IMG/VR virus record: IMGVR_UViG_2657245521_000005
Coordinates: 1 to 11,507 of that record
Strand: one strand, 5' to 3'
DNA length: 11,507 nucleotides
Source: a virus
Taxonomy: Duplodnaviria; Heunggongvirae; Uroviricota; Caudoviricetes
Every line of letters begins with the position of its first letter. Position 1 is the first letter of the stretch. This document shows positions 3,649 through 9,772 of the stretch, piece after piece. The position numbers and the translations under genes were made by a program. Under the pieces are notes generated by a model that saw only the letters and a program-made list of their open reading frames with translations, was not told where the DNA came from and did no database searches.

Positions 3649-4971
3649 TCACGCATGAGTTACCCCCTGCATGCTGTCGACAAGACCACGCGCAATTGTG
3701 ATTATTTCGCTGGTGGACATTCGTTCCAGCCAGAGTTGATTGATGTTGGCTTTCAGCTTGTTCTGCTGTGATTCATCCAGCATGTCAGCACCATCCACCT
3801 GGTCGAATACAATTCCAACCTCCAGTGGCCATATACGGGACTCGGGAAGCTGATCGGCTACTGGTTTAGCTTTCTCACGGATGTGCATGCGGATCTGGCG
3901 AATATTGGACCAACTGGAAACATCCAGGCTTCCCATAGCTGCAATGAAATCAGTACTGTTCATGCCATATTCACCAGATGCTTCAAGGGCAACAGTACGA
4001 ATACGTTCCGACATATCCAGGCGCGCAGCAGCGTCATCGAATTCAATCGACAACAGCCACTCATCCACACCGAGCAAAATACTCTCACGAATAAGCAGCT
4101 TCGCTTTGTCGATCGTTAATGGTGATACCTGAGTGAATTCCGGTGCTTCGACAGAATCCGCCGCCCAGGTATGCCCAAACTTCGATTCACTGAATGTGTA
4201 TTCTTCTTTATCGCCGAACGCAGCTCTAACGCATGCCCACGCCTCAACACCGCTGATATCAAAAATATCTTTCTGGGTAAGTGGCAACTCTGCTTCTGGC
4301 TTGTCAGCTACAGGTGGTGTGGCGGTTGCTGGCTGAGGTTTGCTGGTGGCAAACTGTGCCAAAGCCATAAACGCGCGCCCTTTTGTTTCCAGTTCTGTGC
4401 GGTTGATATAGCTGAATCGCTCGCCACGCCATGACTTATCGAATACAGCTATGGCTCCGGAAAAAAACGCGCTGGTGGGCTTCTGTTTTTCGTCAGCAGG
4501 TACAAACCACACTGGCAGATCGAAACCAATGCGCCCGCGAATGAATACAATGTGATCGGCATCTTCCGGCCACCACGTTTCACTCGGCGCGGCTTTTATC
4601 AGGAATACATAGCGACCGCCCTTCTCGCGCTGGGTTGCTGCGTACTTCATGATGTGCGTCATACCAGTGATCGCCTGTTTCTCGTGGTACTGCGAGCGGC
4701 TATATGGAGGGTTGGCAAAAGCCGCGCCACCCAGTTCTGCCAGACGTTCAGACCAGTCCTGCGTCAGTGCGTTATCTTCGGCGGTGTACCATGCCGGGCA
4801 TTTCGCGTTGTCGTCGTCAGCAAACAAGTCCAGAACTAATGGACCAAATAGCGCGTTGATACCCCAGAAAAGCAGATCCGGTGTCCGCCACTGATCGCCA
4901 ACTTCTTTCAATTCGTGAGCTGGTTTTGAACGCAGTTCGGCCAGCGCGCGGCAGTATTTGTTTTCAATCAT
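3649..4971 (-). CDS. Phage-type DNA N6-adenine methyltransferase (Dam-like) fused to a ~230-aa C-terminal domain of unknown function
   Basis: N-terminal ~190 aa contain WRTPDLLF and the catalytic NPPY motif (FANPPYS) of phage Dam-type MTases. A Pro/Ala/Thr-rich linker (KPQPATATPPVADKPEAE) precedes an unassigned domain. The start ATG overlaps the upstream stop as ATGA (4968..4971), suggesting translational coupling. Confidence 0.75.
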   Translation of the reverse strand: MIENKYCRALAELRSKPAHELKEVGDQWRTPDLLFWGINALFGPLVLDLFADDDNAKCPAWYTAEDNALTQDWSERLAELGGAAFANPPYSRSQYHEKQAITGMTHIMKYAATQREKGGRYVFLIKAAPSETWWPEDADHIVFIRGRIGFDLPVWFVPADEKQKPTSAFFSGAIAVFDKSWRGERFSYINRTELETKGRAFMALAQFATSKPQPATATPPVADKPEAELPLTQKDIFDISGVEAWACVRAAFGDKEEYTFSESKFGHTWAADSVEAPEFTQVSPLTIDKAKLLIRESILLGVDEWLLSIEFDDAAARLDMSERIRTVALEASGEYGMNSTDFIAAMGSLDVSSWSNIRQIRMHIREKAKPVADQLPESRIWPLEVGIVFDQVDGADMLDESQQNKLKANINQLWLERMSTSEIITIARGLVDSMQGVTHA

Positions 4972-5900
4972 CCTCTGAATCCCTCTGGAATTTTGGTATC
5001 TACCGGGCCGAACTTCATCGGGTCATGTTTCTTCTCGCCCCAGCTTTCACGAGGGGGACGGCCTTTCTTATCCCAGCGGAGCCCGCTTTGCAGATAACCC
5101 TCAAATTTTTTCGGCCCAAACAGAGTTTCAGGCCGCATGTACTGATACTGCGCGTCATTGCCGTTCCAGTGTTCATGCTTGAGGTCAATCACCAGCGTTA
5201 AGTCGCTGACGGTATAACCTTCACGCAGACGGGCACGTATGTTTTCCAGAGAGGTTTTAGATTTCTGGTACCGGGAGCCGCTTACCTGGTTCAAATGAGT
5301 TAAAACCAGGATGGCGTTATCAGTGATCAACACCTCAGGGTCTGGTTGCGGCGCAACCGGACAAGAGGGGTTAATGATCTGTTTGTGGTGATCTGAGTAA
5401 TGATCTGTATAGAGAATAGGTTCCGCGACTTCGCGGTTAGGGTTCCGCGATTCTGCGTTTTCGGTTCCGTGATTCTGCGGAATAGGTTCCGCGACTTCGC
5501 GTTTCCCGTTCCGCGATTCTGCGGAATCCAGCGTTGCCGGGAATAAAACATTGATTAGCGCTTCGCCATTGATACGGTAATGCGTCTTTTTCGTGCCGTT
5601 TACCTGTCGCTGCGCCTTTTCAACAACCCCTGGTAGCCAGCGGGTACAAATCTTGTTTACCAGGCGCTGCACCTGATCTTCACTCACGCCGCGAATCTCT
5701 GCCGCAAGCTCGCTGTGCTCTTTATAAAACCAGCCATCATTCAGATCTGATTTACCAGACCAGAACACGAGCTGGTTTAGCACAGCGCCCAAAGCATGCG
5801 CCTGCTGATCGCCGGAGAAATAATCGAGGTACGGGACCGGAATGGTGATGCTATTCCTTTGCCCCGACAGCGATTGAACGATTTCAAATATCTGGCTCAT
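4968..5900 (-). CDS. Replication initiation protein (O-like) with origin iterons embedded in the coding sequence
   Basis: 310-aa ORF. The central linker (SAESRNGKREVAEPIPQNHGTENAESRNPNREVAEPI) is encoded by five tandem dyad-symmetric repeats, as the ori iterons sit inside lambda O. The C-terminal segment (HEHWNG...YMRPETLFGPKKFEGYLQ) resembles the conserved C-terminal domain of prophage replication proteins (recalled). Confidence 0.7.
   Translation of the reverse strand: MSQIFEIVQSLSGQRNSITIPVPYLDYFSGDQQAHALGAVLNQLVFWSGKSDLNDGWFYKEHSELAAEIRGVSEDQVQRLVNKICTRWLPGVVEKAQRQVNGTKKTHYRINGEALINVLFPATLDSAESRNGKREVAEPIPQNHGTENAESRNPNREVAEPILYTDHYSDHHKQIINPSCPVAPQPDPEVLITDNAILVLTHLNQVSGSRYQKSKTSLENIRARLREGYTVSDLTLVIDLKHEHWNGNDAQYQYMRPETLFGPKKFEGYLQSGLRWDKKGRPPRESWGEKKHDPMKFGPVDTKIPEGFRG
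5419..5523. repeat. Five 22-bp-period iterons (GGTTCCGCGAYTYYGCGG-like, each with internal dyad symmetry CCGCGA/TCGCGG); putative replication origin
   Basis: Direct reading: units start at 5419, 5441, 5463, 5485 and 5507. An adjacent stretch on the gene-downstream side (5382..5418) is about 68% AT with two GATC sites (5390, 5402). The ORF 5327..5551 (-) in another frame is just the translation of these repeats. Confidence 0.7.
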
Positions 5901-7383: not shown

Positions 7384-7626
7384 TTAAGCTGCTGAATCTG
7401 CAGACTTTTGGAAAACATCAGGACGCAGTCTTTCTTTTGGGATGCCAGTAACGCTCTCAATGTACTGAGATTGCTTTATTGGCGACCTTTTTTCTCTGTT
7501 GAGCCAGTTCCATACCTGTTGTTGTTTAACTTCCTTCCCGGAACTTGCAGTTAGTTTCCGGGCTAACTCAGACTGGCCACCAGCAGTTTCAATTGCCTCT
7601 GAAAGGGCTAACTGCTCAGGTGTCAT
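7384..7626 (-). CDS. Cro-like HTH regulator (YdaS-type)
   Basis: Preferred start ATG 7626 (MTPEQLALSEAIETAGGQSELARKL...RLRPDVF) with GGAGA SD and 7-nt spacer. The pattern AIExAGGQSxLAR...ERLRPD resembles the YdaS/Cro-like HTH family (recalled). Divergent from the CI-like repressor across an operator-rich spacer. Confidence 0.7.
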   Translation of the reverse strand: MTPEQLALSEAIETAGGQSELARKLTASSGKEVKQQQVWNWLNREKRSPIKQSQYIESVTGIPKERLRPDVFQKSADSAA

Positions 7627-7763
7627 AGTTTTTCTCCTGTGGTTTGAGGTAAAAGTTGTTGGCACCATTGATCATACAACCTAAACAACTTTTACCACAA
7701 CTTTTAGGTGTTGGAAAGCTAAAACATAAAGTTGTAATCTCTCCTAATACAGGGGGTAAAGTT
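7627..7763. promoter_or_regulatory. Immunity switch (OR-like): operator half-site cluster with divergent pR-like and pRM-like promoters
   Basis: The 8-mer AAAGTTGT occurs at 7652, 7728 and 7758, and its reverse complement ACAACTTT at 7685 and 7697, all within 137 bp. Candidate pR (minus): -35 TTGTGG (7700..7695), 18-bp spacer, -10 TATGAT (7676..7671). Candidate pRM (plus): -35 TTGGAA (7711..7716), 18-bp spacer, -10 TAATCT (7735..7740). Confidence 0.55.
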
Positions 7764-8450
7764 GTGAATACACTTGCGGAACGACTAAAAATAGCTAGAG
7801 AGAAGAAAGGCATGAGCCAGGCTCAGTTAGCCGAGCTAATAGGCCTGTCTCAACAATCTGTGGCGAAAATTGAAAATGGAGATACGCTTCAACCTAGAAA
7901 GATCAAAGATATTGCGAAAGCTTTAGATGTATCCCAAAAATGGCTACAGCTCGGAATTGAGGAGAATGGCTCTATTTCTGATTTTGTAGTTGAGGAACTT
8001 GAAGAAGCAAAACTTGATCCTGAAGTATTTGCCAACATACCCGTTCTCGATGTTGAGTTCTCTGCTGGCAATGGATGTGAAGCCGAAATTGTGGAATCAG
8101 TTGTTGATTCGTTCCCTCTTCGTCGTTTCGATCTTAGAAAAGCTGGAGTCAGTCCTGCTAACGCAAGAATCGTAAAGATTTGGGGCAACAGCCTTTTGCC
8201 AGTATTGAATAATGGGGATCATGTCGCGATTGACATGTCACAGTCGAAACCTATCAGAGATGGTGATTTATACGCTGTTAGAGATGGAGTTTTACTTCGA
8301 GTTAAAGTTCTTATCAATCAACCAGATGGTGGTTTGATACTGCGGAGTTTCAACAAAGAAGAGTACCCGGATGAAGTACTCAACTTTGATGAAAGAAGAG
8401 CCAGAATACACGTTATTGGTCGCGTGTTCTGGTCTTCACGTTCATGGTAG
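7764..8450 (+). CDS. CI-like prophage repressor (HTH_XRE N-terminal domain plus LexA-like S24 autopeptidase domain)
   Basis: Preferred start GTG 7764 (GGGGG SD, 7-nt spacer); the ORF-track start at 7656 would lie inside the operator region. HTH: LAERLKIAREKKGMSQAQLAELIGLSQQSVAKIENGD. Candidate Ala-Gly cleavage site in FSAGNG. S24 motifs: WGNSLLP (Ser) and LLRVKVL (Lys). Confidence 0.85.
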   Translation: MNTLAERLKIAREKKGMSQAQLAELIGLSQQSVAKIENGDTLQPRKIKDIAKALDVSQKWLQLGIEENGSISDFVVEELEEAKLDPEVFANIPVLDVEFSAGNGCEAEIVESVVDSFPLRRFDLRKAGVSPANARIVKIWGNSLLPVLNNGDHVAIDMSQSKPIRDGDLYAVRDGVLLRVKVLINQPDGGLILRSFNKEEYPDEVLNFDERRARIHVIGRVFWSSRSW

Positions 8451-9323
8451 AGCGTGAAAAAGCATTTCTTCTGAAATGATTTTTAACTTAGCCCCTTCAT
8501 CATCTCTATATGAGACTGCTTTTTCTATTTTCCTTCCGTGACTGGAGAACTTCCAGTCACGCGAGGAAAGAGTACCAATTACGAGAAAATCAATTCTCTT
8601 TGTGATTCCGCTGGAAATCAGTCCATTATTCTTTTTAATTAGGTCTTCAACATGTGCTCTCTTTCCTGCCAAAAAAACACCCGTTAAGCAAAATGTTTTA
8701 TTTTCAACAGAAACTTCAGCAGTATTATCTAATGGTAATTTAGTAGAAAGCCCATCTACGACGCCGCTTGCAAGGTCACAACCAGTAAAATCTACCAGCG
8801 CCTTGTGTAGATTTTCACTTTCTTCAGTGGTGATGATCCCATCGCTCAGAATCTCTTTTACTAAAGCGTATAGTTCCTTTCCTGGATAATTACTTTTTAG
8901 CGCCCCGTTCTGTGTTAACCACCAGTCCAGGTATCTCACTTCTTCTTCACTTAAGGTTCGATCTGATATTAAACCCTTGCAAAGACCATTCAACAGATGC
9001 AGATCTGACTCACTGGAGAATAAATCCACATCGGGTATATCGAGTATTTGTCTTTGTATATCATTAAGATGCAGTTTTAATTCACCACGCTCATCATCAG
9101 AAACAACACCATCGGCCAGTATTTTAGAAACCCTAACACTTAGACTCTTGATAACACCATTTCTAATGGTTTGGTTGGCTTCAAGTAGCCAAGTATCAAG
9201 ATATAGCACCTCTTCATCCCGCACATGTCCATCGGCAAGAATCCCATCAATAATGCTGATTAAATTTGCAAAAAGCTTATTTCTATTTTGTGTGTAGTTA
9301 AAAACGTAGAGCTTGTCTTCCAT
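8442..9323 (-). CDS. Hypothetical protein with four TerB-like helical repeats and a C-terminal BRCT-like domain; candidate immunity-region accessory (defence or exclusion) gene
   Basis: Preferred start ATG 9323 (MEDKLYVF...) with AGGAGG SD. Four repeats of I-L-[AS]-D-[GR]-x-[VIL]-x-x-[ED]-E at aa 28, 68, 118 and 158 (ILADGHVRDEE, ILADGVVSDDE, LISDRTLSEEE, ILSDGIITTEE). C-terminal KTFCLTGVFLAGKRAHVEDLIKKNNGLISSGITKRIDFLVIG...KIISEEMLFHAL resembles the BRCT domain of NAD-dependent DNA ligase. Markedly AT-rich relative to flanks; 3' end overlaps the repressor stop by 9 bp. Confidence 0.75.
   Translation of the reverse strand: MEDKLYVFNYTQNRNKLFANLISIIDGILADGHVRDEEVLYLDTWLLEANQTIRNGVIKSLSVRVSKILADGVVSDDERGELKLHLNDIQRQILDIPDVDLFSSESDLHLLNGLCKGLISDRTLSEEEVRYLDWWLTQNGALKSNYPGKELYALVKEILSDGIITTEESENLHKALVDFTGCDLASGVVDGLSTKLPLDNTAEVSVENKTFCLTGVFLAGKRAHVEDLIKKNNGLISSGITKRIDFLVIGTLSSRDWKFSSHGRKIEKAVSYRDDEGAKLKIISEEMLFHALP
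8463..8486 (+). terminator. Weak terminator-like hairpin just after the repressor stop
   Basis: CATTTC-ttct-GAAATG followed by ATTTTTAA. The stem is short and AT-rich, and the element lies inside the 3' end of the convergent gene on the other strand. Confidence 0.2.
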
Positions 9324-9375
9324 ACAGCCTCCTTTTTTGAACATCCTTACATTCAGACGCCCCACAATCAAACCA

Positions 9376-9456
9376 CATAAAGTTGTTGACATAACCATTA
9401 TTCACAACTAAATTACACCTTAAAGTTGTTATTACGATTTACAACATTACAACTAG
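9376..9456. promoter_or_regulatory. Second operator cluster (OL-like) with near-consensus rightward promoter (pL-like)
   Basis: Plus-strand -35 TTGACA (9386..9391), 17-bp spacer, -10 TAAATT (9409..9414). AAAGTTGT at 9379 overlaps the -35 and recurs at 9422 near the predicted start site; ACAAC-type half-sites at 9404, 9441 and 9449. Same 8-mer as in the cI/cro spacer. The divergent promoter for the 8442..9323 gene must also lie here. Confidence 0.5.
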
Positions 9457-9559
9457 CCATAAGCAACAGCGAACAGGCAGGACGCCCACGAAGTAGCCGC
9501 CGGTGGCGTATGAATAACCGGATGATTCGCTCAATAAAGTTAGGTAGGGGAATTTCACG

Positions 9560-9772
9560 ATGAATGCAGCACAACGCCGAAGGGCTTATCACAAACACCC
9601 GAAAGTTGGGGACACTGTAATTTTACGAGGCATTCCTCGCCTAGTACTGGGTCCGTGTACGTTCAACAGCCTTACTGGCGAAGAGCGTAGCAAACCTTCG
9701 GTAAGCCGTGTCAGGGTTCAAATGACTGGCGGCTCAACAGCTGCACCACTCGTACGTAATTTAAAGTTTTAG
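9560..9772 (+). CDS. Candidate small N-like protein with N-terminal arginine-rich motif (speculative)
   Basis: First ORF after the pL-like promoter, 70 aa. N-terminus MNAAQRRRAYHKHPK resembles the arginine-rich RNA-binding motif of lambda N (DAQTRRRERRAEKQ, recalled). Upstream CGCTCAATAAA is a weak boxA-like match. SD is poor (GGGG about 10 nt upstream). Could be non-coding. Confidence 0.3.
   Translation: MNAAQRRRAYHKHPKVGDTVILRGIPRLVLGPCTFNSLTGEERSKPSVSRVRVQMTGGSTAAPLVRNLKF

What the first reader, a model, noticed from the sequence alone, without database searches (positions are those of the whole stretch)
7627..9456. Shared 8-bp operator half-site AAAGTTGT/ACAACTTT at both flanks of the immunity region
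The 8-mer or its reverse complement occurs five times in the 137-bp cI/cro spacer and twice more (plus related ACAAC half-sites) around the pL-like promoter at 9376..9456. By rough estimate fewer than one occurrence would be expected by chance in the whole window. This defines a likely repressor recognition element and shows the 8442..9323 gene is bracketed by OR and OL. Half-site spacing is irregular, so the full operator architecture is unresolved.
Basis: seen in the sequence. Interest (0 to 1): 0.45.

Follow-up and report, generated by a model that had tools for sequence, protein, structure and literature searches.

The report
Prophage repressor operator sites, 434-like
The repeated 8-mer is real and marks the DNA sites where a prophage's phage-434-like repressor most likely binds, at the two control regions on either side of its immunity genes; this is an ordinary lambda-type switch, but of an immunity type that nobody has characterised.

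Summary
AAAGTTGT or its complement occurs 7 times (0.56 expected by chance), only in the 137-bp cro/cI spacer and at the promoter near 9386. It occurs about once per 100 kb of E. coli chromosome. Four of the seven 8-mers are the strong half of a 15-bp imperfect dyad, ACAACTT-N-AAGTTGT: OR-a 7697-7711, OR-b 7721-7735, OL-a 9372-9386 and OL-b 9415-9429. The other three, plus ACAAC at 7676 and 9404, are half-sites with no partner. The repressor (7764-8450, HTH plus S24 peptidase) is most similar among solved structures to the phage 434 repressor. It keeps the Gln-Gln-Ser recognition helix that reads ACAA. Its sites follow the 434 pattern, ACAA...TTGT, but with 7 rather than 6 bases between. All 88 related prophage loci, from several genera, keep these sites while the spacers between them vary. 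Relatives with a different recognition helix have different repeats. By inferred promoter positions, OR-a and OR-b sit where lambda OR2 and OR3 sit. No repressor from a sequenced phage is more than 43% identical. This is a new member of a known kind. No binding has been shown experimentally.

The parts
7384..7626 (-). cro-like gene (80 aa, YdaS-family HTH). Its helix 3, VKQQQVWNW, resembles VKQQSIQL of 434 Cro.
   Evidence: Pfam PF15943, E 4.6e-13. Translation. The helix is invariant in 23 distinct homologues. The comparison with 434 Cro is from memory of its sequence.
7652..7659 (+). Unpartnered half-site AAGTTGT (first 8-mer), about +7 of the inferred pR.
   Evidence: Column identity is 0.97 while the flanks are 0.57 and 0.39. 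The partner half matches only 2/7. In L006 and L007 it lies 10 bp closer to the next half-site.
7671..7700 (-). Inferred pR: -35 TTGTGG (7700..7695), 18-nt spacer, -10 TATGAT (7676..7671), start near 7664.
   Evidence: Read from the sequence. The -10 position is conserved and reads TATAAT in many loci. The consensus scan did not pick it up.
7676..7682 (+). Unpartnered half-site ACAACCT abutting the pR -10 (about -14).
   Evidence: ACAAC has identity 1.0 across 45 distinct sequences. The partner half matches 3/7.
7685..7692 (-). Unpartnered half-site (second 8-mer, ACAACTTT on the + strand), in the pR spacer (about -23).
   Evidence: Identity 0.98. The partner half matches 1/7.
7697..7711 (.). 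OR-a, 15-bp dyad ACAACTTTTAGGTGT (contains the third 8-mer). Its centre, 7704, is -40 of pR and -43 of pRM.
   Evidence: 2 mismatches to ACAACTTNAAGTTGT. Present in all 88 loci, as GGTGT or GATGT. Identity 0.98.
7711..7740 (+). Inferred pRM: TTGGAA, 18-nt spacer, TAATCT, start near 7747. Weak, as expected for an activator-dependent promoter.
   Evidence: Read from the sequence. The block 7712-7740 has identity 0.89-0.99. The scan did not detect it.
7721..7735 (.). OR-b, 15-bp dyad AAAACATAAAGTTGT (contains the fourth 8-mer). Its centre, 7728, is -19 of pRM.
   Evidence: Identity 0.99.
7758..7765 (+). Fifth 8-mer, between the Shine-Dalgarno GGGGG and the GTG start of cI. The role of this half-site is uncertain.
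   Evidence: GTTGTG 7761-7766 has identity 1.0, but the AAA part varies (ATGTTGTG in the E. coli type). The partner half matches 2/7.
7764..8450 (+). cI-type repressor, 228 aa: 434-like HTH domain plus S24 self-cleaving peptidase domain.
   Evidence: Pfam HTH_3 6e-16 and Peptidase_S24 2e-14. PDB 1per, 434 repressor, E 1.1e-10. Ser143 and Lys181 are invariant.
8442..9323 (-). Passenger gene between cI and OL: 293-aa protein with a C-terminal BRCT domain, function unknown.
   Evidence: Pfam BRCT 1.2e-5. phrog_3989, E 1.5e-114, unknown function. Vibrio phage K139 orf2, 32% identity. Internally deleted in 14 loci.
9343..9371 (-). Candidate leftward promoter for the BRCT gene: TTGATT (9371..9366), 17-nt spacer, AAGGAT (9348..9343) preceded by TGT, start near 9336.
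   Evidence: Inference from conservation: hexamer regions 0.85-0.87 against 0.49 for the spacer. The scan did not detect it.
9372..9386 (.). OL-a, dyad ACCACATAAAGTTGT (contains the sixth 8-mer). Its centre, 9379, is -42 of pL and -43 of the candidate BRCT promoter.
   Evidence: Identity 1.0.
9386..9414 (+). pL-type promoter TTGACA-17-TAAATT, start near 9421.
   Evidence: 10 of 12 consensus matches. Hexamer identity 0.96-0.99 against 0.33 for the spacer.
9404..9410 (+). Unpartnered half-site ACAACTA abutting the pL -10 (about -15).
   Evidence: Identity 0.97. The partner half matches 1/7.
9415..9429 (.). OL-b, dyad ACACCTTAAAGTTGT (contains the seventh 8-mer), centred on the pL start.
   Evidence: 1 mismatch. 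In related loci the strong half switches sides: ACAAC...GGTGT or GATGT.
9441..9453 (+). Two further ACAAC pentamers (9441, 9449), specific to this lineage.
   Evidence: Present here but absent or different in most related loci. Probably not essential.
9469..9530 (+). Conserved structured leader RNA of the pL transcript. It is not part of the operator finding.

Best explanation
This is the operator set of a lambda-type lysogeny switch whose repressor belongs to the phage 434 structural family. The repressor (7764-8450) has a 434-like helix-turn-helix domain with the Gln-Gln-Ser recognition helix. It also has an S24 self-cleavage domain, so the prophage is probably induced through RecA and the SOS response. 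Dimers most likely bind 15-bp imperfect dyads of consensus ACAACTT-N-AAGTTGT. That is the 434 pattern ACAA...TTGT with 7 bases between instead of 6. There are two dyads at OR and two at OL.

The promoter positions below are inferred from the sequence. OR-a lies at -40 of pR and -43 of pRM, which is the position of lambda OR2. It would repress pR and could activate pRM. OR-b lies at -19 of pRM, the position of lambda OR3, and would shut off repressor synthesis. OL-a (-42) and OL-b (+1) flank the strong pL promoter. Instead of a third dyad, each lytic promoter carries conserved half-sites without partners. One abuts the -10 hexamer in each promoter (7676 in pR, 9404 in pL). pR has two more (7685 and 7652). 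These are probably filled cooperatively by repressor, or by the Cro-like protein, whose recognition helix also begins Lys-Gln-Gln.

Shown here: the enrichment, the dyad symmetry, the conservation, the homology to 434, and that relatives with a different recognition helix carry different repeats. Inferred: actual binding, the transcription start sites, activation of pRM, and which protein reads the unpartnered half-sites.
For: Enrichment: 7 copies against 0.56 expected. About 1 copy per 100 kb of E. coli chromosome and none elsewhere in the window.

Dyad symmetry: 4 of the 7 8-mers have a partner half matching at least 5 of 7 positions at the dyad position. The background rate is 2 of 274, giving a binomial p of 1e-7. 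Exactly 4 window sites lie within 2 mismatches of the 15-mer, against a shuffle mean of 0.04.

Conservation: 88 loci with repressors 58-100% identical keep all four dyads at fixed spacing, 24 bp at OR and 43 bp at OL. They come from E. coli, a Citrobacter metagenome assembly, Rosenbergiella, Tatumella, a record labelled Pseudomonas lundensis, and IMG/VR prophage contigs. Site columns have identity 0.92-1.0, against 0.33-0.57 for spacer columns.

Symmetric swap at OL-b: the forms are ACACC..GTTGT (24 loci) and ACAAC..GGTGT or GATGT (62 loci), never a perfect dyad.

Homology: the best solved match is the 434 repressor, E 1.1e-10. SQQSVAKIENG aligns with 434 TQQSIEQLENG, and the Pro-Arg at 42-43 is kept. 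In 434 the outer 5+5 bp are contacted and the outer 4+4 are conserved (PMC1636474).

Relatives with other helices: Hafnia phage Meifeng has helix KQQSIAS and repeats of ACAG-N6-CTGT. Stx1 phage SH2026 has helix SQPAIQK and repeats of TATAAC/GTTATA. L008 has helix SRVSVSQ and no AAAGTTGT.

OL travels with cI when the BRCT gene is deleted. The half-site at 7652 is 10 bp (one helical turn) closer in L006 and L007.
Against: There is no binding or transcript data of any kind. pR, pRM and the candidate BRCT promoter fall below the threshold of the consensus scan; only pL is detected. Positions relative to start sites are therefore inferred. Only two full dyads are present per region, not the three of lambda or 434. 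Three of the seven 8-mers have no recognisable partner half, so a simple dimer-per-dyad model does not explain all conserved sites. The 15-bp spacing differs from the 14 bp of 434 and of the Meifeng relative. The 88 loci are related by descent, so conservation alone overstates independence. The argument rests on the contrast between adjacent conserved and variable columns.
Confidence: 0.8

Rival explanations
1. The motif is mainly the recognition element of the Cro-like YdaS-family protein (7384-7626), not of the S24 repressor. The repressor would then read something else, or only some of these sites.
For: The Cro-like protein has an invariant helix VKQQ(Q/H)(V/I)WNW across the family. It begins Lys-Gln-Gln, as I recall 434 Cro does. 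Half-sites without a dyad partner, in either orientation and abutting the -10 of both lytic promoters, fit a protein that binds single half-sites better than a symmetric dimer does.
Against: In lambda and 434, Cro and repressor share the same operators, so this is more an addition than an alternative. The repressor's own helix matches that of 434 repressor. Four sites are dyads with the ACAA-outward orientation that 434 repressor uses. No structure or DNA site is known for this Cro family; the best PDB match has E 0.44-0.52.
Confidence: 0.12
2. The repeats serve another DNA-binding function, such as replication iterons, recombinase or partition sites, or sites for a host factor like DnaA or IHF. 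On this reading they only happen to lie near the promoters.
For: The tandem direct repeats ACAAC-N4-ACAAC-N7-ACAAC (7676, 7685, 7697) look superficially like iterons.
Against: The sites lie exactly over promoter elements of divergent regulatory genes at both ends of the immunity region. The replication genes lie elsewhere, at 4968-5900. Their sequence matches what the adjacent repressor's helix is expected to read. They do not resemble DnaA boxes or IHF sites (my own knowledge of those consensus sequences).
Confidence: 0.04
3. There is no function. The 8-mers are chance or leftover copies from a duplication between OR and OL.
For: OR-b and OL-a share ACATAAAGTTGT, and OR-a and OL-b share 14 of 15 positions as reverse complements. 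A past duplication of operator sequence is therefore likely.
Against: None of 200 shuffles reaches 7 copies. The sites stay fixed while neighbouring bases vary, across repressors down to 58% identity. The symmetric swap of the strong half at OL-b indicates selection on the dyad.
Confidence: 0.02

Closest known systems
Phage 434 immunity region (434 repressor and Cro with 14-bp operators ACAA-N6-TTGT at OR and OL)
   Same: The repressor's N-terminal domain is homologous (E 1.1e-10) and has the same Gln-Gln-Ser start of the recognition helix. Half-sites begin ACAA and face inward as dyads. Five bases per half appear to be specified, as in 434 (PMC1636474). The central bases are A/T-rich. Operator clusters lie at both a rightward and a leftward early promoter. 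The Cro-like helix also starts Lys-Gln-Gln.
   Different: The dyad is 15 bp (ACAA-N7-TTGT), not 14. Position 33 of the helix is Lys instead of Gln, and the fifth base is a fixed C. There are two full dyads per region instead of three, plus conserved half-sites without partners. Cro is a YdaS-family protein, not a paralogue of the repressor domain. Identity is confined to the roughly 65-aa DNA-binding domain.
Phage lambda OR/OL switch (CI, Cro, pR, pRM, pL, with rexAB between cI and OL)
   Same: The genes cI and cro diverge from a short spacer. The repressor has an S24 domain. By inferred starts, pR and pRM are about 83 bp apart (82 in lambda). OR-a lies at -43 of pRM and -40 of pR, like OR2. 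OR-b lies at -19 of pRM, like OR3, 24 bp from OR-a. A passenger gene sits between cI and OL, where lambda has rexAB. The lambda figures are from memory, not checked here.
   Different: The recognition sequence and repressor family differ. No full dyad is present at the OR1 position. The passenger gene is convergent with cI and has its own candidate promoter, rather than being co-transcribed. OR and OL are 1.68 kb apart, or 0.94 kb in the deletion variants.
Hafnia phage vB_HpaM_Meifeng immunity region (an uncharacterised relative, 40% identical repressor)
   Same: It has a Gln-Gln-Ser recognition helix and ACA-type half-sites at both flanks of cI.
   Different: Its sites are regular 14-bp dyads, ACAG-N6-CTGT, with three in the cro/cI spacer, like 434. 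The window's family uses ACAAC, a 15-bp spacing and unpartnered half-sites.

Membership tests
Lambda-type (lambdoid) CI/Cro immunity switch | Divergent repressor and cro genes separated by a short control region | tested here: met
   cro 7384-7626 (-) and cI 7764-8450 (+) with a 137-bp spacer. Related E. coli prophages have the same layout.
Lambda-type (lambdoid) CI/Cro immunity switch | Repressor with a C-terminal S24 (LexA-like) self-cleavage domain and a Ser/Lys catalytic pair | tested here: met
   Peptidase_S24, E 2e-14. Ser143 and Lys181 are invariant, and Ala-Gly is present in 'FSAGNG'. Cleavage itself was not tested.
Lambda-type (lambdoid) CI/Cro immunity switch | Repeated operator sites overlapping both a rightward and a leftward early promoter | tested here: met
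   Dyads at 7697, 7721, 9372 and 9415. The pL promoter is detected. pR and pRM are inferred only.
Lambda-type (lambdoid) CI/Cro immunity switch | Three full dyad operators in each control region | tested here: not met
   Only two sites per region fall within 4 mismatches of the dyad. The OR1-equivalent position holds unpartnered half-sites.
Lambda-type (lambdoid) CI/Cro immunity switch | Repressor and Cro shown to bind the operators and set the lysogeny/lysis decision | not testable with these tools
   This needs EMSA or footprinting and reporter assays.
Phage 434-type repressor/operator family | DNA-binding domain homologous to 434 R1-69 | tested here: met
   1per, E 1.1e-10, residues 4-67 aligned to 2-65.
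Phage 434-type repressor/operator family | Gln-Gln at the start of the recognition helix | tested here: met
   SQQSVAK against TQQSIEQ. (S/T)QQ is conserved in all 88 loci.
Phage 434-type repressor/operator family | Operator with ACAA outermost on each half, facing inward | tested here: met
   The strong halves read ACAAC/GTTGT. The weak halves differ at one position each.
Phage 434-type repressor/operator family | 14-bp operator (ACAA-N6-TTGT) | tested here: not met
   All four dyads are 15 bp (ACAA-N7-TTGT) in all 88 loci. The relative Meifeng has N6.
HK022 put antiterminator RNA (considered for the conserved pL leader element at 9469-9530) | Structured RNA of about 70 nt just downstream of pL | tested here: met
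   A 62-nt element starts about 48 nt after the inferred pL start. 97% of cells are paired and 5 pairs show compensatory changes. The put description is from PMC9378689.
HK022 put antiterminator RNA (considered for the conserved pL leader element at 9469-9530) | Detectable sequence and structure similarity to HK022 putL or putR | tested here: not met
   Covariance model R1 finds nothing in the whole HK022 genome at E up to 10.
HK022 put antiterminator RNA (considered for the conserved pL leader element at 9469-9530) | A second copy downstream of pR | tested here: not met
   There is only one match in the window, which holds 7.6 kb downstream of pR.

The most novel reading that the evidence does not exclude
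The switch may use a mixed grammar that has not been described for lambdoid phages. Deliberately imperfect 15-bp dyads would combine with conserved single half-sites phased about 21 bp apart across each lytic promoter, taking the place of a third operator. The half-sites would be read by a 434-like repressor and by an unrelated Cro that shares the Gln-Gln helix. In addition, OL-a would work in both directions. Repressor bound there would switch off pL and switch on the divergent promoter of the BRCT gene from position -43, in the way OR2 activates pRM. That would make the passenger gene a repressor-activated, lysogen-expressed gene.
Probability: 0.25. Interest if true: 0.55.

Novelty: new member of a known kind. 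Interest (0 to 1): 0.35.

Why it matters
It defines the operator sequence and layout for an immunity type that is common in enterobacterial prophages. Eighty-eight related loci were collected here, and 43 complete E. coli genomes carry the cassette over most of its length. No sequenced phage has a repressor more than 43% identical. The consensus allows prediction of immunity groups, design of reporters and operator mutants, and direct tests of three questions. How does a 434-type domain cope with one extra central base pair? What do half-sites without partners contribute? Does the repressor control the BRCT passenger gene? It does not change the general picture of how lambdoid switches work.

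Tried and rejected
1. Rfam scan of the whole window at E up to 1: only a chance Trp_leader hit, and no family for the pL leader RNA.
2. HK022 put homology for that RNA: covariance model R1 finds nothing in HK022.
3. Literature searches for the 8-mer, for BRCT together with prophage immunity, and for pieces of the RNA sequence: nothing relevant.
4. The 17-nt inverted repeat 7644-7660 / 7684-7700 reported by the repeat finder (I2) looked like a large palindrome. The match beyond TAAAAGTTGT is not kept in other loci, so the extension is coincidence.
5. The same applies to the 11-nt match 7760-7770 / 9399-9409 (I9), which falls in a variable spacer.
6. I tried to read the OR1-equivalent position as a dyad. 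The windows 7676-7690 and 7685-7699 give only 3/7 and 1/7 partner matches, so I did not call a third operator.
7. PADLOC for the BRCT protein: only a weak partial hit, PDC-S48, E 5.5e-5. No defence function is assigned.
8. The consensus promoter scan detects pL but not pR, pRM or the BRCT promoter. Those remain inferences.
9. A recurring 2-mismatch 15-mer, ACAACTTTATGCTGT, lies further down the pL operon of E. coli-type loci. It is absent from the window and was treated as a probable chance match carried by a conserved module.
Full report
**Observation.** AAAGTTGT or its reverse complement occurs exactly seven times in the 11.5-kb window: at 7652, 7685, 7697, 7728, 7758, 9379 and 9422. Dinucleotide-preserving shuffles give a mean of 0.56, and none of 200 reaches seven. 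Five copies lie in the 137-bp spacer between a leftward cro-like gene (7384-7626) and a rightward repressor gene (7764-8450, GTG start). Two lie at a strong TTGACA-17-TAAATT promoter at 9386-9414. Outside these two regions the window has no copy of the 8-mer or of the 7-mer AAGTTGT. One hundred kb of E. coli chromosome holds one copy, and phage HK022 holds none.

**Gene context.** The repressor has an HTH_3 domain and a Peptidase_S24 domain, with the catalytic Ser and Lys conserved. The leftward gene is a YdaS-family Cro-like protein. Further left are a CII-like/YmfL-type regulator and replication genes. Between the repressor gene and the promoter at 9386 lies a convergent gene (8442-9323). 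It encodes a 293-aa protein with a C-terminal BRCT domain, phrog_3989, of unknown function. The window is a mosaic related to ST64B-, SfV- and Eeyore-type temperate phages, but the immunity cassette is not theirs. The best repressor match in 50,697 phage records is 43% identical. The cassette does occur in prophages. Forty-three complete E. coli genomes carry it over at least 80% of its length, at 72-79% DNA identity. Relatives were also found in a Citrobacter metagenome assembly, a record labelled Pseudomonas lundensis, Rosenbergiella and Tatumella, and in 80 IMG/VR contigs.

**What the motif is.** The repressor's N-terminal domain is most similar, among all solved structures, to the phage 434 repressor (E 1.1e-10), followed by 434 Cro. 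The recognition helix reads SQQSVAKIENG, against TQQSIEQLENG in 434. Gln-Gln-Ser is kept, position 33 is Lys instead of Gln, and the Pro-Arg at 42-43 is kept. The 434 operators are 14-bp dyads in which the outer five bases of each half are contacted and the outer four (ACAA) are conserved (PMC1636474). I took each GTTGT as the right half of a dyad and asked whether the left half matches ACAACTT. Four of the seven 8-mers have a partner matching 5-6 of 7 positions. The background rate for such a partner is 2 of 274, which gives a binomial p of 1e-7. These four sites are:
- OR-a, 7697-7711, ACAACTTTTAGGTGT
- OR-b, 7721-7735, AAAACATAAAGTTGT
- OL-a, 9372-9386, ACCACATAAAGTTGT
- OL-b, 9415-9429, ACACCTTAAAGTTGT

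They are the only window sites within three mismatches of ACAACTTNAAGTTGT. Shuffles give a mean of 0.04 sites at two mismatches or fewer. The 8-mer is therefore a 7-bp half-site plus the central base of a 15-bp dyad. This is the 434 pattern with one extra central base pair (ACAA-N7-TTGT).

**Comparative evidence.** All 88 related loci that carry the OR core have the same four dyads. The OR pair is 24 bp apart and the OL pair 43 bp apart. Their repressors are 58-100% identical, and all keep (S/T)QQ(S/A)(V/I)(A/G)K.
- In 45 distinct OR sequences, identity to the window is 0.97-1.0 in site columns. It is 0.39-0.57 in the leader and in the spacers between sites.
- In 54 distinct OL sequences the sites and promoter hexamers score 0.92-1.0, while the promoter spacers score 0.33 and 0.49.
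- OL-b exists in two main forms. In 24 loci it is ACACC-TTAAA-GTTGT. In 62 loci it is ACAAC-TTAAA-GGTGT or GATGT. The mismatch thus sits at the symmetry-related position of one half or the other. No locus has a perfect dyad at any of the four sites.
- In 14 loci the BRCT gene has an internal deletion, and the OL pair lies about 740 bp closer to cI. OL therefore belongs with the repressor, not with the passenger gene.
- More distant relatives differ as expected. Hafnia phage Meifeng (helix KQQSIAS) has regular ACAG-N6-CTGT dyads on both sides of cI. An Stx1 phage (helix SQPAIQK) has TATAAC/GTTATA repeats. A Cardiobacteriaceae relative (helix SRVSVSQ) has no AAAGTTGT.

**Layout and likely mechanism.** Only pL passes the consensus scan. 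From the sequence and its conservation I infer three more promoters:
- pR on the minus strand: TTGTGG-18-TATGAT, reading TATAAT in many loci, start near 7664.
- pRM: TTGGAA-18-TAATCT, start near 7747.
- A leftward promoter for the BRCT gene: TTGATT-17-AAGGAT preceded by TGT, start near 9336.

On these assignments pR and pRM start about 83 bp apart. OR-a is centred at -40 of pR and -43 of pRM. OR-b is centred at -19 of pRM. From memory, these are the positions of lambda OR2 and OR3. OL-a is centred at -42 of pL and OL-b at the pL start.

The simplest reading is a lambda-type switch. Repressor dimers at OR-a and OL-a/OL-b block the lytic promoters. Repressor at OR-a helps pRM, and repressor at OR-b limits its own synthesis. 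S24 self-cleavage lifts repression after DNA damage.

What does not fit the textbook is the OR1-equivalent position. No third dyad is present there. Instead there are conserved half-sites with no recognisable partner: 7676-7682 abutting the pR -10, 7685-7692 in the pR spacer, 7652-7659 at about +7, and 9404-9410 abutting the pL -10. Pentamer centres fall about every 21 bp across each lytic promoter: 7699, 7678 and 7657 at pR, and 9384, 9406 and 9427 at pL. In Rosenbergiella and Tatumella the downstream pR half-site lies 10 bp closer, which is one helical turn. This suggests binding on one face of the helix.

These half-sites could be filled by repressor through cooperative contacts, or by the Cro-like protein. 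Cro's helix, VKQQQVWNW, is invariant across the family and begins like that of 434 Cro. I cannot decide between the two. The fifth 8-mer (7758-7765) lies between the Shine-Dalgarno sequence and the GTG start. Its GTTGTG is invariant, but the rest varies, so its role is uncertain.

**A more speculative point.** OL-a sits at -43 of the candidate BRCT promoter, mirroring OR-a at pRM. The strong half is distal and the weak half abuts a TTG-type -35 in both cases. Repressor at OL-a might therefore activate the BRCT gene in lysogens. This rests only on geometry and conservation.

**Comparison and novelty.** In mechanism this is a lambda/434-type immunity switch. It meets the defining features I could test: divergent cI and cro, an S24 repressor, operators at both early promoters, a 434-like domain with the Gln-Gln helix, and ACAA-outward dyads. 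It fails two: three dyads per region, and the 14-bp spacing of 434. No paper in the searchable library mentions the motif in this context. I rate it a new member of a known kind. It is a previously uncharacterised immunity specificity with some unusual operator grammar, and it is not a new kind of system.

**Seen in passing.** Immediately downstream of pL there is a conserved 62-nt structured RNA (9469-9530). It is shared with SfV, ST64B, ZF40, YeP1, AH07 and others, and always lies just after cI at the start of the early-left operon. Covariation support is good: 97% of cells are paired, five pairs show compensatory changes, and slid controls give 20-42%. It matches no Rfam family and does not match HK022 put RNA.

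Noticed in passing
window 9469-9530 (+); also L095 (SfV) 2501-2571, L096 (ZF40), L097 (YeP1), L098 (AH07) and L099 (ST64B) near 1500-1572: A conserved structured RNA of about 62 nt lies at the 5' end of the early-left (pL) transcript. An outer stem CGAAC/GUUCG-type encloses two hairpins with highly conserved loops. It is shared by temperate phages of at least five genera with different immunity regions, and it always lies about 100-120 nt after the cI stop. 97% of cells are paired and 5 pairs show compensatory changes. There is no Rfam family, no match in HK022 and only one copy in the window. It may be a cis-acting leader element such as an antiterminator, but its function is unknown.
   Followed up: partly
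window 8442-9323 (-): A 293-aa protein with a C-terminal BRCT domain and an uncharacterised N-terminal part sits between cI and OL, where lambda has rexAB. It is convergent with cI and overlaps it by 9 bp. It belongs to phrog_3989 (unknown function). It has a 32%-identical homologue, orf2, in Vibrio phage K139, and only a weak PADLOC hit. In 14 related prophages it is internally deleted.
   Followed up: partly
window 9343-9371 (-): A candidate leftward promoter for the BRCT gene has conserved hexamer regions and a variable spacer. OL-a is centred at -43 of it, the same geometry as OR-a at the inferred pRM. Repressor might therefore activate this gene in lysogens.
   Followed up: partly
window 9560-9772 (+): The first ORF after pL (70 aa, no family hits in Pfam, PHROGs or NCBIfam) starts MNAAQRRRAYHKH. 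This arginine-rich N-terminus is reminiscent of the RNA-binding motif of lambda N (a recollection, not tested). The gene in this position differs between related loci, whereas the upstream RNA element is conserved.
   Followed up: no
L010 (IMGVR_UViG_2609459844_000006), OL-b: The locus whose repressor is 100% identical to the window's differs from the window inside OL-b: ACACCTTAAAGGTGT, with both halves weakened, against ACACCTTAAAGTTGT. This is a natural operator variant in an otherwise near-identical prophage.
   Followed up: no
E. coli-type loci, e.g. L003 at +2670 from the OR anchor, and L076 at +1765: A recurring 15-mer, ACAACTTTATGCTGT, with 2 mismatches to the operator consensus, lies further down the early-left operon in many E. 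coli-type prophages. It is not in the window. It may be an extra operator, or a chance match carried by a conserved module.
   Followed up: no
window 3649-4971 (-): A 440-aa ORF in the early-right operon matches both a phage DNA methyltransferase family and a PAPS-reductase-like family (phrog_111 and phrog_33262). It looks like a fusion typical of ST64B-like phages.
   Followed up: no
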